Shown: positions 21,669 to 29,119 of the stretch, in pieces
How positions within the stretch are numbered: position 1 is the stretch's first letter
Layout: each line of letters opens with the position of its first letter
Assembly (NCBI RefSeq): GCF_001677475.2
Contig: NZ_CP015229.1
DNA from: Escherichia coli
Lineage (GTDB): Bacteria > Pseudomonadota > Gammaproteobacteria > Enterobacterales > Enterobacteriaceae
Strand: one strand, 5' to 3'
Length of the DNA stretch: 64,000 nucleotides
The notes under the pieces: generated by a model
Database searches by the model: none
Told to the model about the DNA's origin: nothing
The model's input: the letters and a program-made list of their open reading frames with translations, nothing else
Position numbers and translations under genes: made by a program

Positions 21669-22772
21669 ATGACAAAAGTATTGCTGTCTCATCCCCCGCG
21701 CCCGGCGAGCCATAACTCAAGCCGCGCTATGGTGTGGGTGCGAAAAAATCTGTTCTCCAGCTGGAGCAATAGCCTACTGACTATTGGCTGCATATGGTTG
21801 ATGTGGGAACTGATCCCACCGTTGCTGAACTGGGCATTTTTGCAGGCTAACTGGGTTGGCTCAACGCGTGCCGACTGCACAAAAGCCGGTGCCTGTTGGG
21901 TCTTCATCCACGAACGATTTGGTCAATTTATGTATGGGCTTTACCCACACGACCAACGCTGGCGATTTAACCTCGCATTACTGATTGGGCTTGTGTCGAT
22001 CGCACCAATGTTCTGGAAAATACTCCCGTATCGCGGTCGCTATATTGCGGTATGGGCGGTGATTTACCCACTGATTGTCTGGTGGCTGATGTATGGCGGG
22101 TTTCTTGGTCTTGAGCGGGTTGAAACCCGGCAATGGGGCGGGCTGACGCTAACTTTAATTATTGCATCAGTTGGGATTGCGGGGGCGCTGCCGTGGGGGA
22201 TCTTACTGGCGTTAGGTCGCCGCTCCCATATGCCGATTGTGCGTATCTTATCGGTCATTTTTATCGAGTTCTGGCGCGGTGTACCGCTGATTACCGTTCT
22301 GTTTATGTCTTCGGTCATGCTGCCGTTGTTTATGGCAGAAGGCACCAGTATCGACAAATTGATCCGCGCGCTGGTTGGCGTGATCCTGTTTCAGTCAGCA
22401 TATGTTGCGGAAGTCGTGCGAGGCGGATTACAGGCGCTGCCTAAAGGGCAATATGAAGCGGCAGAGTCGCTGGCGTTGGGTTACTGGAAAACCCAGGGGC
22501 TGGTTATTCTGCCACAGGCGTTGAAGCTGGTGATTCCTGGGCTGGTAAATACCATCATCGCACTTTTCAAAGATACCAGCCTGGTGATCATCATCGGGTT
22601 GTTCGATCTTTTCAGTAGCGTTCAGCAGGCAACCGTTGATCCCGCCTGGTTGGGTATGTCGACAGAAGGGTATGTTTTCGCCGCACTGATCTACTGGATC
22701 TTCTGTTTCAGCATGTCACGTTATAGCCAACATCTGGAAAAACGTTTTAACACCGGGCGTACACCGCATTGA
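21669..22772 (+). CDS. yhdY: Amino-acid ABC transporter permease
   Basis: 367 aa multi-TM. Confidence 0.85.
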
Positions 22773-22779
22773 GGACACT

Positions 22780-23538
22780 ATGAGCCAAATTTTACTGCAA
22801 CCTGCTAACGCGATGATTACGCTGGAAAACGTCAATAAATGGTATGGACAATTCCATGTTTTGAAAAATATAAATTTGACCGTGCAACCGGGAGAACGGA
22901 TCGTTCTGTGTGGCCCTTCTGGTTCCGGTAAATCGACAACCATTCGTTGTATTAATCATCTGGAAGAACATCAACAGGGACGGATCGTGGTGGATGGCAT
23001 CGAACTTAATGAAGATATCCGCAATATTGAGCGCGTCAGGCAGGAAGTGGGAATGGTCTTTCAGCATTTCAATCTCTTCCCTCATCTGACCGTTCTACAG
23101 AACTGTACCCTGGCACCGATTTGGGTACGCAAGATGCCTAAAAAAGAGGCTGAAGCTCTGGCGATGCATTACCTTGAGCGGGTGAGAATTGCCGAACATG
23201 CCCAGAAGTTTCCCGGACAGATTTCGGGTGGTCAGCAGCAACGCGTTGCCATAGCACGTTCACTTTGTATGAAACCAAAGATCATGCTATTTGATGAACC
23301 TACGTCGGCGCTCGATCCGGAGATGGTGAAAGAGGTGCTGGATACGATGATTGGACTGGCGCAATCGGGTATGACAATGTTGTGTGTAACGCATGAGATG
23401 GGGTTTGCGCGAACCGTCGCTGACCGGGTGATTTTTATGGAGCGTGGGGAAATAGTGGAGCAAGCTGCACCTGATGAATTTTTTGCGCATCCTAAATCAG
23501 AGCGTACGAGGGCATTTTTATCGCAGGTAATCCATTAA
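22780..23538 (+). CDS. yhdZ: Amino-acid ABC transporter ATP-binding protein
   Basis: 252 aa; Walker [10 protein letters not shown], signature LSGGQQQR. Confidence 0.92.
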
Positions 23539-23561
23539 TTGAATGTTAGTTCGAAAAGCAA

Positions 23562-23764
23562 AAAGGCCATCCTTTCGGATGGCCTTTCGCTTGATTTGAT
23601 GTCTGGCAGTTTATGGCGGCGTCCTGCCCGCCACCCTCCGGGCCGTTGCTTCGCAACGTTCAAATCCGCTCCCGGCGGATTTGTCCTACTCGGGAGAGTG
23701 TTCACCGACAAACAGCAGATAAAACAAAAGGCCCAGTCTTCCGACTGAGCCTTTTGTTTTATTT
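23562..23764 (-). terminator. rrnD distal terminator region (T1/T2-type hairpins)
   Basis: Two hairpins (AAAAGGCCATCC..GGATGGCCTTT and AAGGCCCAGTC..GACTGAGCCTTT) matching rrn terminator sequence as recalled. Confidence 0.7.
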
Positions 23765-23765
23765 G

Positions 23766-23885
23766 ATGTCTGGCAGTTCCCTACTCTCGCATGGGGAGAC
23801 CCCACACTACCATCGGCGCTACGGCGTTTCACTTCTGAGTTCGGCATGGGGTCAGGTGGGACCACCGCGCTACTGCCGCCAGACA
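23766..23885 (-). rRNA. rrfF: 5S ribosomal RNA, distal copy
   Basis: 120 nt, reverse complement of 5S sequence; two compensatory differences from rrfD. Confidence 0.93.
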
Positions 23886-23922
23886 AATTCTTTTCTAATC
23901 TGCCGAACTTTAACCTAAAAAG

Positions 23923-23998
23923 TGGTGCTGATACCCAGAGTCGAACTGGGGACCTCACCCTTACCAAGGGTGCGCTCTACCAACTGAGCCATATCAGC
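23923..23998 (-). tRNA. thrV: tRNA-Thr
   Basis: Reverse complement GCTGATATGGCTCAGTTGGTAGAGCGCACCCTTGGTAAGGGTGAGGTCCCCAGTTCGACTCTGGGTATCAGCACCA. Confidence 0.93.
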
Positions 23999-24010
23999 AC
24001 GCTAAATTTG

Positions 24011-24130
24011 ATGCCTGGCAGTTCCCTACTCTCGCATGGGGAGACCCCACACTACCATCGGCGCTACGGCGTTTCACTTCTGAGTTCGGCATGGGGTCAG
24101 GTGGGACCACCGCGCTACGGCCGCCAGGCA
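24011..24130 (-). rRNA. rrfD: 5S ribosomal RNA
   Basis: 120 nt exact match to canonical E. coli 5S as recalled. Confidence 0.95.
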
Positions 24131-24228
24131 AATTCTGTTTTATCAACACGTCATGTTCTGACCTGTCGATTTAATCTGTATCAGGCTGAAAATCTTCTCT
24201 CTATCCGCCAAAACATCTTCGGCGTTGT

Positions 24229-27132
<2,904 letters not shown>

Positions 27133-27314
27133 CACAACCCGAAGATGTTTCTTTCGATGCATCATCGTGTTGCGAAAATTTGAGAGACTCACGAACAACT
27201 TTCGTTGTTCAGTGTTTCAATTTTCAGCTTGATCCAGATTTTTAAAGAGCAAAACTTCGCAGTGAACCTTTGCAGGTACACTCTGAAGTATTTTTTATTT
27301 AATCACTACAGAGA

Positions 27315-27577: not shown

Positions 27578-29119
<1,542 letters not shown>

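What the first reader, a model, noticed from the sequence alone, without database searches (positions are those of the whole stretch)
23540..23765. Shared terminator region for convergent yhdZ and rrnD
yhdZ on the plus strand and the rrnD operon on the minus strand converge on about 225 bp that holds two strong hairpins at 23562..23588 and 23721..23764. Both are flanked by A-runs on one side and T-runs on the other, so they can terminate in either direction. This insulates the ABC operon from very heavy rRNA transcription.
Basis: partly seen in the sequence, partly recalled or inferred. Interest (0 to 1): 0.2.

Follow-up and report, generated by a model that had tools for sequence, protein, structure and literature searches.

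The report
rrnD dual terminators flanking sRNA rrF
The two hairpins are the well-known T1 and T2 terminators at the end of the E. coli rrnD ribosomal RNA operon; T2 also ends the opposing yhdZ gene, and the stretch between them is not an empty spacer but the already described small-RNA gene rrF, so the finding is real but ordinary.

Summary
Two very stable hairpins lie at 23561-23588 and 23719-23762 (z -4.6 to -9.5 against shuffles), between yhdZ (+) and the distal 5S gene of an Escherichia/Shigella rrnD operon (-).

The interval is the known rrnB-type tail: 5S, then T1, then a tRNA-linked repeat (sRNA gene rrF), then an 18-nt copy of the 5S 3' end, then T2. This is described for rrnA, rrnB and rrnD in PMC8144298.

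- **T2 is shared.** It starts 24 nt after the yhdZ stop. Published Term-seq puts the yhdZ mRNA 3' end at window 23588, at the foot of the hairpin. yhdZ and T2 are contiguous in 5421 of 5426 complete E. coli genomes.
- **T1 is not part of a yhdZ insulator.** With rrF it forms a 167-bp unit bounded by the repeats. That unit sits next to yhdZ in only 3240 of 5426 genomes and is precisely missing in short alleles. The same unit occurs in rrnB, whose neighbour is co-directional.
- **T1 leaks.** For rrnB it stops 87% of transcripts, and the read-through makes the sRNA.

Verdict: already known, low interest. The presence/absence polymorphism of T1+rrF is a small by-product.

The parts
22780..23538 (+). 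yhdZ, ATP-binding subunit of the yhdWXYZ amino-acid ABC transporter. It is the last gene of the + strand operon; stop codon TAA at 23536-23538.
   Evidence: ORF list; RefSeq annotation of the 99%-identical K-12 locus.
23561..23588 (.). T2 hairpin, core GGCCATCC-loop-GGATGGCC at 23565-23584. On the - strand it is the second, strong intrinsic terminator of rrnD, with U-tract TTTTTGCTTTTCGAA at 23550-23564. On the + strand it is the terminator / 3'-end hairpin of the yhdZ mRNA.
   Evidence: The scan calls it on both strands. Energies -24.5/-24.9 kcal/mol, z -4.6/-5.5. Homologous to rrnA/rrnB T2. rrnB T2 terminated 100% of transcripts (Orosz 1991, as cited in PMC8144298).
23588..23588 (+). Position matching the mapped 3' end of the yhdZ mRNA in E. 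coli K-12 (MG1655 3423244, + strand).
   Evidence: Term-seq, M63 OD 0.4 sheet, class 'primary', supplementary file 1 of PMC7815308. The coordinate was transferred through the shared sequence, which is identical between window and K-12 here.
23594..23611 (-). 18-nt direct repeat AACTGCCAGACATCAAAT in rrn sense. It copies the last 13 nt of 5S rRNA plus the 5 nt that follow; the original lies at 23761-23778. It marks the 3' end of the TLR and is the proposed RNase E processing signal.
   Evidence: Repeat family D2. The rrnD-specific A (CCAGACAT, against CCAGGCAT in rrnA/B) is present in both copies. The processing role was proposed in PMC8144298.
23596..23763 (-). rrF, a tRNA-linked repeat that encodes the sRNA RrF. 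The coordinates are the approximate extent of the long processed form, good to a few nt. They run from about 3 nt after the 5S 3' end to about 3 nt after the repeat, and include the T1 hairpin at the 5' end.
   Evidence: Two differences from K-12 rrF: one substitution and one 1-nt deletion. More than 95% identical to rrA/rrB. Ends mapped for RrB by S1 nuclease and cRACE in PMC8144298. Core similar to the tyrT TLR.
23719..23762 (.). T1 hairpin, 20 bp, core 23730-23751. It is the first, leaky intrinsic terminator of rrnD, directly after the 5S gene, with rrn-sense U-tract TTTTGTTTTATCTG. On the + strand it has a C.A mismatch but a full U-tract.
   Evidence: One G-C to A-U compensatory pair relative to rrnA/B T1. 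rrnB T1 stops 87% of transcripts. The rrnB T1 3' end is seen by Term-seq at 4171799/800.
23766..23885 (-). rrfF, the distal 5S rRNA gene of rrnD. The mature 3' end at 23766 corresponds to MG1655 3423423.
   Evidence: Rfam 5S_rRNA hit at 23768-23883; K-12 annotation; Term-seq mature end.
23926..23998 (-). thrV, tRNA-Thr, between the two 5S genes.
   Evidence: Rfam tRNA hit; K-12 annotation.
24013..24128 (-). rrfD, the proximal 5S rRNA gene of rrnD.
   Evidence: Rfam 5S_rRNA hit; K-12 annotation.

Best explanation
The interval is the standard rrnB-type tail of the rrnD ribosomal RNA operon. It abuts the 3' end of the convergent yhdWXYZ operon.

**rrn transcription (- strand)**
1. RNA polymerase leaving the distal 5S gene meets T1 (23762..23719), an intrinsic terminator that stops most but not all transcripts.
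2. The polymerases that read through transcribe the roughly 130-nt body of the tRNA-linked repeat rrF.
3. They then stop at T2 (23588..23561).
4. RNase E cuts about 3 nt after the 5S 3' end, and again about 3 nt after the 18-nt copy of that end. This releases the short-lived sRNA RrF, whose level therefore follows rRNA synthesis at a reduced ratio.

**yhdZ transcription (+ strand)**
The T2 hairpin starts 24 nt after the stop codon. It forms the 3' end of the yhdZ mRNA. T2 is therefore one DNA element used in both directions, and it is the real boundary between the two transcription units.

**Status of T1**
T1 and rrF form an optional 167-bp cassette bounded by the 18-nt repeats. They belong to the rrn operon, not to an insulator built for yhdZ.

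**Shown here**
- The hairpins.
- The homology to rrnA/B.
- The repeats.
- The population data.

**Taken from the literature for K-12**
- T1 and T2 efficiencies, measured on rrnB.
- The RrB ends.
- Hfq and CsrA binding.
- The yhdZ 3' end.

**Inferred**
- That these properties carry over to this strain's rrnD.
- That T2 is what keeps rrn polymerases out of yhdZ.
For: - **Hairpins:** much more stable than shuffles on both strands, and called as terminators.
- **Locus identity:** Rfam finds 16S, 23S, two 5S and three tRNAs on the - strand. The interval is 99% identical to K-12 yhdZ-rrfF.
- **Homology to the classic tails:** collinear alignment with the rrnA and rrnB tails from the 5S end through T2, with one compensatory pair in T1.
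- **Repeat:** an 18-nt exact repeat of the 5S 3' end.
- **TLR similarity:** a full-length but sub-threshold RtT match. Local similarity to the tyrT TLR unit scores 29, against 16.4 +/- 2.3 in shuffles; 2 of 2000 shuffles reach it.
- **Literature on rrA/rrB/rrF:** these are sRNA genes made by T1 read-through. The RrB 5' end lies at the RNase E site 3 nt after 5S. Forms of 173 and 115 nt exist, with a half-life of about 2.5 min. They bind Hfq and CsrA. T1 stops 87% and T2 100% of transcripts (PMC8144298).
- **Term-seq:** the yhdZ 3' end lies at the foot of T2 on the + strand, and the rrnB T1 3' end lies in its U-tract (PMC7815308).
- **Population data:** yhdZ+T2 are contiguous in 5421 of 5426 genomes. 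T1+rrF+T2 lie next to yhdZ in 3240. Short alleles lack exactly the unit between the repeats.
Against: - No direct 3'-end data exist for the rrn strand at rrnD T1 or T2. The curated Term-seq table lists only the mature 5S end there. The efficiencies come from rrnB.
- The yhdZ 3' end was listed in only one of three growth conditions and at a low read count (824). Term-seq cannot tell termination from exonuclease trimming back to a hairpin.
- The + strand U-tract of T2 is weak.
- This window's rrF carries a 1-nt deletion seen in no other E. coli copy. It weakens the 3' stem-loop, so RrF may be impaired in this strain, or the base may be a sequencing error.
- The physiological role of RrA/B/F is weakly supported even in K-12. 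Phenotypes are modest, and deletion and overexpression give the same direction of effect.
Confidence: 0.88

Rival explanations
1. One reading: the two hairpins together form a two-way insulator between yhdZ and rrnD. Each would work as a terminator in both directions, and the DNA between them would be a passive spacer.
For: Both hairpins fold about equally well on either strand. Both have A-rich and T-rich flanks. T1 on the + strand has a full U-tract, with T-score 4.69. T2 is used by yhdZ.
Against: The same T1-TLR-T2 module follows rrnB, where the next gene, murB, is co-directional. About 40% of E. coli genomes manage with T2 alone at this very locus. The 'spacer' matches rrA/rrB at all but 2 positions apart from the window's own two changes, carries the TLR hallmark repeat and yields a processed RNA that binds Hfq and CsrA. 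The T1 stem is tuned to the rrn strand: a G.U pair there becomes a C.A mismatch on the + strand, and the core energy is -15.8 against -11.0 kcal/mol.
Confidence: 0.1
2. T1+rrF is a selfish or neutral repeat cassette, a tRNA-linked repeat that spreads and is lost through its 18-nt terminal repeat. It would have no host function. Only T2 matters for either transcription unit.
For: Presence/absence polymorphism with precise boundaries at the repeats. 1482 of 5426 genomes have no rr-TLR at all. The tyrT locus carries tandem copies of a related unit. Phenotypes of rrA/B/F deletion are modest and contradictory. In Atlantibacter a related TLR sits between 5S and tRNA-Asp without T1 or T2.
Against: Sequence and predicted structure are reported as conserved in 31 species of 12 enterobacterial genera. 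The RNA is processed to defined ends and binds Hfq and CsrA in pull-downs and EMSA. Copies within E. coli stay more than 93% identical.
Confidence: 0.25
3. On the + strand the T2 hairpin is not a true terminator. It would be a 3'-end stabiliser: yhdZ transcription stops further downstream (at T1 in reverse, or by head-on collision with rrn polymerases), and exonucleases trim the RNA back to the hairpin.
For: The + strand U-tract is interrupted: UUUCGCUUG, 5 U in 8, T-score 2.82. The mapped 3' end lies only 4 nt after the G+C stem, as expected after trimming. Collision-driven termination at hairpins between convergent genes has been proposed for E. coli (bioRxiv 10.1101/2022.10.23.513370).
Against: The terminator scan accepts T2 on the + strand. 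Three U residues follow the stem directly, and the rrnD flank is slightly more U-rich on this strand than in rrnA/B (2.82 against 2.53). No downstream + strand 3' end is listed in the curated table.
Confidence: 0.2

Closest known systems
rrnB T1-T2 dual terminator region of E. coli (Brosius 1981; Orosz 1991, as cited in PMC8144298), the terminator cassette used in many cloning vectors
   Same: The order is collinear: 5S end, T1 hairpin, a spacer of about 130 nt, an 18-nt repeat of the 5S end, then the T2 hairpin. From the 5S end through the U-tract of T2 the sequence is nearly identical.
   Different: rrnD T1 has an A-U pair where rrnA/B have G-C, giving an uninterrupted U4GU4 tract. The T2 loop is GAAA instead of UGAC. 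The 5' flank of T2 is GCGAAAGG rather than GCAGAAGG. The 5S end and its repeat read CCAGACAT. The downstream gene is convergent (yhdZ), whereas rrnB is followed by the co-directional murB.
RrA/RrB/RrF sRNAs, the rrn-linked members of the tRNA-linked repeat (TLR) family (Stenum et al. 2021, PMC8144298; Rudd 1999 as cited there)
   Same: Same locus (rrnD) and same sequence apart from two changes. Same hallmark 18-nt repeat and same position between T1 and T2.
   Different: This window's copy has a T-to-C change just after the T1 U-tract. It also has a 1-nt deletion in the 3' stem-loop that is found in none of 7936 copies in complete E. coli genomes.
RtT / rttR repeats downstream of tyrT-tyrV (Rfam RF00391)
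   Same: Both are TLRs: a unit transcribed behind a stable RNA gene that ends with a copy of that gene's 3' end. They share a core, (G/A)CGTTGC..GCAACG(G/A)CCCG(G/A)AGGG, at the same relative position.
   Different: The Rfam score is 19.3 bits against a gathering score of 45. The 5' half is unrelated; in rrF it is the T1 terminator. The terminal repeat copies 5S rather than tRNA-Tyr. rrF is a single copy rather than a tandem array.
Bidirectional terminators between convergent genes in E. coli (Ju et al. 2019, as described in bioRxiv 10.1101/2022.10.23.513370)
   Same: T2 is one hairpin between convergent units. It is flanked by an A-tract and a U-tract, and a 3' end is mapped for the + strand transcript.
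   Different: On the rrn strand T2 looks like a canonical strong intrinsic terminator, not a weak element that depends on collisions. Expression of the two partners is extremely unequal. I could not check whether this pair is in the published list, because that paper is not held.

Membership tests
Intrinsic (Rho-independent) terminator | G+C-rich stem-loop, far more stable than chance, placed just after the end of a gene | tested here: met
   T1 -33.2 kcal/mol (z -9.5) and T2 -24.9 kcal/mol (z -5.5) on the rrn strand; 0 of 200 shuffles as stable. T1 starts 4 nt after the 5S end. T2 starts 24 nt after the yhdZ stop.
Intrinsic (Rho-independent) terminator | U-rich tract directly 3' of the stem on the transcribed strand | tested here: met
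   T in the first 8 nt: rrn strand T1 has 7 and T2 has 6; + strand T1 has 7 and T2 has 5 (interrupted, the weakest).
Intrinsic (Rho-independent) terminator | RNA 3' ends in vivo at the U-tract | not testable with these tools
   Literature only. The yhdZ 3' end lies at the foot of T2 on the + strand, and the rrnB T1 3' end lies in its U-tract (PMC7815308). Nothing is listed for rrnD T1 or T2 on the rrn strand.
rrnB-type dual terminator tail (T1-TLR-T2) | Collinear sequence homology to the rrnB/rrnA tail from the 5S end through T2 | tested here: met
   Alignment A3: nearly invariant from the 5S end to the T2 U-tract, diverging only after it.
tRNA-linked repeat (TLR) family / RrA,B,F sRNA | Lies directly downstream of a tRNA or rRNA gene, on the same strand and in the same transcription unit | tested here: met
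   Starts right after rrfF on the - strand. No promoter-like site was found in 22500-24500.
tRNA-linked repeat (TLR) family / RrA,B,F sRNA | The last 18-19 nt repeat the sequence at the 3' end of the upstream stable RNA gene | tested here: met
   An 18-nt exact repeat at 23594-23611 and 23761-23778, with the locus-specific A variant in both copies.
tRNA-linked repeat (TLR) family / RrA,B,F sRNA | Sequence identity to K-12 rrF/rrA/rrB | tested here: met
   Two differences from K-12 rrF over the whole tail. rrA and rrB align throughout.
tRNA-linked repeat (TLR) family / RrA,B,F sRNA | Processed to a discrete RNA that binds Hfq and CsrA | not testable with these tools
   Shown for K-12 RrA/B/F, mostly with RrB (PMC8144298). 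Not known for this strain's variant, which has a weakened 3' stem-loop.
Rfam RtT (RF00391) | Covariance-model score at or above the curated gathering score (45 bits) | tested here: not met
   19.3 bits, E 0.083, although the match spans the full model (1-130) at 23604..23725 on the - strand. The element is related to this Rfam family but not a member by its criterion.
Bidirectional terminator of a convergent gene pair | One hairpin element where transcripts from both strands end, so that their 3' ends overlap | tested here: inconclusive
   The geometry and both-strand terminator calls are met for T2. The + strand end is mapped in K-12. The rrn-strand end at T2 rests on rrnB data from the literature, not on rrnD.

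The most novel reading that the evidence does not exclude
The 167-bp T1+rrF unit may be an actively gained and lost cassette rather than a fixed part of the operon. It is bounded by 18-nt repeats. It is precisely absent next to yhdZ in about 40% of complete E. coli genomes, and no rr-TLR exists anywhere in about 27%. Its terminal repeat tracks the local 5S allele. If TLRs spread by copying the 3' end of stable RNA genes, a mobile-element-like behaviour, then the RrA/B/F sRNAs would be strain-variable passengers. That would mean growth-rate-coupled CsrA/Hfq titration differs between E. coli lineages. I found no report of this polymorphism in the paper that described the sRNAs, but my literature search was narrow.
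Probability: 0.25. Interest if true: 0.35.

Novelty: already known. Interest (0 to 1): 0.1.

Why it matters
It matters little as a discovery. The rrn T1/T2 terminators have been textbook material since 1981, and the sRNA between them was published in 2021.

The practical value is in correcting the annotation.
- The interval contains a gene, rrF, that RefSeq does not annotate and that no Rfam family covers at gathering score.
- The hairpin that really separates yhdZ from rRNA transcription is T2 alone.

The population data add one modest point. The leaky-terminator-plus-sRNA cassette is dispensable in a large fraction of natural E. coli. This bears on how seriously the proposed CsrA-tuning role of RrA/B/F should be taken. 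It also provides natural isogenic-like contrasts to test that role.

Tried and rejected
- **Pseudo-5S or pseudo-tRNA in the spacer:** a permissive Rfam scan of 23530-23775 gave no 5S or tRNA match. It returned only sub-threshold hits, mostly driven by the terminators (Phe_leader, MicC, RNAI), plus RtT.
- **Protein-coding potential:** mechanical ORFs cross the interval (23539..23748 +, 23535..23711 -, 23546..23656 -). They overlap terminator hairpins, start at TTG and have no support, so I did not pursue them.
- **Internal promoter for rrF or antisense RNA:** no sigma-70-like site in 22500-24500.
- **Cross-genus collection of the module:** an exact 24-nt core pattern in genome contigs found only 4 loci (three Escherichia, one Atlantibacter).
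- **SEnd-seq paper on bidirectional terminators (Ju 2019):** not held.
- **Dar & Sorek 2018 Term-seq:** no supplement held.
- **Measured reverse-orientation efficiency of rrnB T1:** the literature search returned nothing relevant.
- **Curated rrn-strand Term-seq 3' ends at rrnD T1/T2 and rrnB T2:** none listed.
- **One paper search** failed on a term that was too short, and another, for TLR papers, found only the Stenum paper.

Full report
**1. What is in the sequence**

yhdZ ends at 23538 on the + strand. The - strand carries a complete rRNA operon:
- 16S at 29119..27578
- two tRNAs
- 23S at 27131..24229
- 5S at 24128..24013
- a tRNA at 23998..23926
- a second 5S at 23883..23768

This order (16S, two tRNAs, 23S, 5S, tRNA-Thr, 5S) and the yhdXYZ neighbours identify the locus as rrnD of Escherichia coli. 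A 501-nt query across the interval is 99% identical to the yhdZ-rrf interval of K-12 strains. Over 6 kb elsewhere in the window, no complete E. coli genome exceeds 99.3% identity. The source is therefore an Escherichia/Shigella lineage not represented in that set.

**2. The observation**

The two hairpins are real and sit within 1-2 nt of the stated coordinates: 23561-23588 and 23719-23762.

Folded as RNA on either strand, they give -24.5/-24.9 and -31.9/-33.2 kcal/mol. The z-scores are -4.6/-5.5 and -9.5/-9.5, and no shuffle folds as well.

One qualification applies: the + strand tail of the yhdZ-proximal hairpin is interrupted (TTTCGCTTGATTTG). My own T-tract score for it is 2.82, against 4.3-4.7 for the other three.

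**3. What the interval is**

Aligned in rrn sense with the tails of rrnA and rrnB from MG1655, the interval is collinear and nearly identical from the 5S end through the U-tract of the second hairpin. It diverges only after that point. The hairpins are therefore the rrnD counterparts of the classic rrnB T1 and T2 terminators.

Three details in that alignment are informative:
- **T1:** it carries one compensatory change, A-U in rrnD where rrnA/B have G-C. This supports the long stem and gives rrnD an uninterrupted U4GU4 tract.
- **T2:** the stem is unchanged, but the loop differs (GAAA against UGAC).
- **5S end:** the rrnD-specific base in the 5S 3' end (CCAGACAT against CCAGGCAT) is mirrored in a second copy of that sequence just upstream of T2.

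That second copy is part of a direct repeat at 23582-23611 and 23749-23778. It is 90% identical over 30 nt and exact over 18 nt. The exact part covers the last 13 nt of 5S plus the next 5 nt.

**4. The stretch between the hairpins is a described gene**

A permissive Rfam scan gave a full-length but sub-threshold match of 23604..23725 (- strand) to RtT, the repeat behind tyrT. The score was 19.3 bits against a gathering score of 45. A local alignment with the first tyrT repeat unit of MG1655 scored 29. Shuffles gave 16.4 +/- 2.3, and 2 of 2000 reached the observed score. The similarity lies at the same relative position in both units.

The literature explains this. Stenum et al. 2021 (PMC8144298) describe the tRNA-linked repeats (TLRs), whose hallmark is an 18-19-nt 3' end identical to the 3' end of the upstream tRNA or rRNA gene. 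They show that the three TLRs between T1 and T2 of rrnA, rrnB and rrnD (rrA, rrB, rrF) have these properties:
- They are transcribed by read-through of T1.
- They are processed to forms of about 173 and 115 nt.
- The 5' end lies at the RNase E site 3 nt after 5S.
- The 3' end lies 3 nt after the repeat.
- The half-life is about 2.5 min.
- They bind Hfq and CsrA.

The same paper quotes 87% termination at rrnB T1 and 100% at T2. It proposes that the dual terminators set the expression level of the sRNA.

RefSeq does not annotate rrF in MG1655, and no Rfam family reaches its gathering score there.

**5. Is the region shared with yhdZ?**

For T2 the answer is yes. The hairpin starts 24 nt after the stop codon, and the scan accepts it as a terminator on both strands.

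The curated Term-seq table of Adams et al. 2021 (PMC7815308, supplementary file 1) lists a 'primary' yhdZ 3' end at MG1655 3423244(+) in the M63 sheet. The table gives 50 nt upstream, the end nucleotide and 10 nt downstream. The end is therefore the C after GGATGGCCTTT, which is window 23588.

The same table lists two other relevant ends:
- the mature rrfF end at 3423423(-), which is window 23766
- for rrnB, a 3' end inside the T1 U-tract

It lists no rrn-strand ends at rrnD T1 or T2. This may reflect multi-mapping between the three near-identical tails.

**6. Population evidence separates T2 from T1**

| Query | Complete E. coli genomes with the sequence (of 5426) |
|---|---|
| yhdZ 3' end plus T2 (23470-23598), contiguous | 5421 |
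| Whole interval (23480-23790), contiguous | 3240 |
| At least one copy of a 70-nt rrF piece | 3944 (1482 have none) |

In short alleles (strains 4/4 and 2018-05-2CC) the 5S gene runs straight into the T2 flank. Exactly the 167-bp unit between the repeats is missing. One strain, CT265, also lacks the distal 5S gene.

T2 is thus the constant boundary element. T1+rrF is an optional cassette of the rrn operon.

The dual arrangement also occurs at rrnB, whose neighbour murB is co-directional. At rrnA the convergent gene mobB lies about 270 nt from the 5S end. So the arrangement is not an adaptation to convergent transcription.

In Atlantibacter, a related TLR lies between 5S and tRNA-Asp with no flanking hairpins. 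This shows that the repeat and the terminators are separable.

**7. Mechanism and its status**

*Shown here:* two terminator-grade hairpins, the repeat architecture, homology to rrnA/B and to the tyrT TLR, and the polymorphism.

*From published experiments on K-12:* T1 is leaky and T2 is tight (measured on rrnB). RrA/B/F RNAs exist and are processed. yhdZ mRNA ends at T2.

*Inferred:* the same holds for this strain's rrnD, and T2 keeps the very active rrn polymerases out of yhdZ. + strand termination at T1 would act only on transcripts that escape T2.

T1 on the + strand has a good U-tract. Its stem, however, is tuned to the rrn strand: a G.U pair there becomes a C.A mismatch on the + strand, and the core energy falls from -15.8 to -11.0 kcal/mol.

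An alternative for the + strand is that T2 acts mainly as a pause or stabiliser hairpin. Release would then come from collision or from trimming. Term-seq alone cannot exclude this.

**8. Peculiarities of this window**

Relative to K-12, the tail has one substitution just after the T1 U-tract (window 23715). It also has a 1-nt deletion in the 3' stem-loop of rrF, at about 23618-23619.

The deletion occurs in none of 7936 copies in the E. coli set. It weakens that hairpin from -20.9 to -15.1 kcal/mol. It may be a private mutation or a sequencing error.

**9. Verdict**

T2 is a shared, two-way element. T1 is not part of a yhdZ insulator, and the spacer is the known sRNA gene rrF.

Everything essential is already published, so interest is low. 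The only possibly unreported item is the extent of the T1+rrF presence/absence polymorphism among E. coli genomes.

Noticed in passing
window 23599-23765; loci L003 and L004 (about 460-540): The 167-bp T1+rrF unit is a presence/absence polymorphism. It lies next to yhdZ in 3240 of 5426 complete E. coli genomes, and 1482 genomes have no rr-TLR copy at all. Short alleles lack exactly the segment between the 18-nt repeats, leaving the 5S gene followed directly by T2.
   Followed up: partly
window about 23618-23619 (+ strand G-run): There is a 1-nt deletion in the 3' stem-loop of rrF relative to K-12. It is found in none of 7936 rr-TLR copies in complete E. coli genomes. It weakens the hairpin from -20.9 to -15.1 kcal/mol. 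It could be a private mutation or a sequencing error.
   Followed up: partly
L005 (E. coli CT265), about 460-640: This strain lacks the distal 5S gene rrfF as well as T1+rrF. tRNA-Thr is followed after a short stretch by T2 and then yhdZ.
   Followed up: no
L010 (Atlantibacter sp. RC6), about 7690-7830, - strand: A related TLR, with the same GTTGCGAAGCAACGGCCCGGAGGG core and a repeat of the 5S 3' end, sits between the 5S gene and a tRNA (read by eye as tRNA-Asp, not checked with a tool), with no T1- or T2-like hairpins. The operon terminator comes after the tRNA.
   Followed up: no
window 23766-23778 and 23599-23611: The rrnD-specific base in the 5S 3' end (CCAGACAT, against CCAGGCAT in rrnA/B) is present in both the 5S gene and the TLR terminal repeat. 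This suggests homogenisation within the locus or local origin of the repeat.
   Followed up: no
window 27139..27247 (-): There is an Rfam StyR-44 match (123.8 bits) just upstream of the 23S gene, in the spacer of the rrn operon.
   Followed up: no
E. coli genome collection (plasmid records): 27-44 matches to the T1-rrF-T2 region lie on plasmids in the complete-genome set. These may be vector-derived rrnB terminator cassettes; I did not examine them.
   Followed up: no
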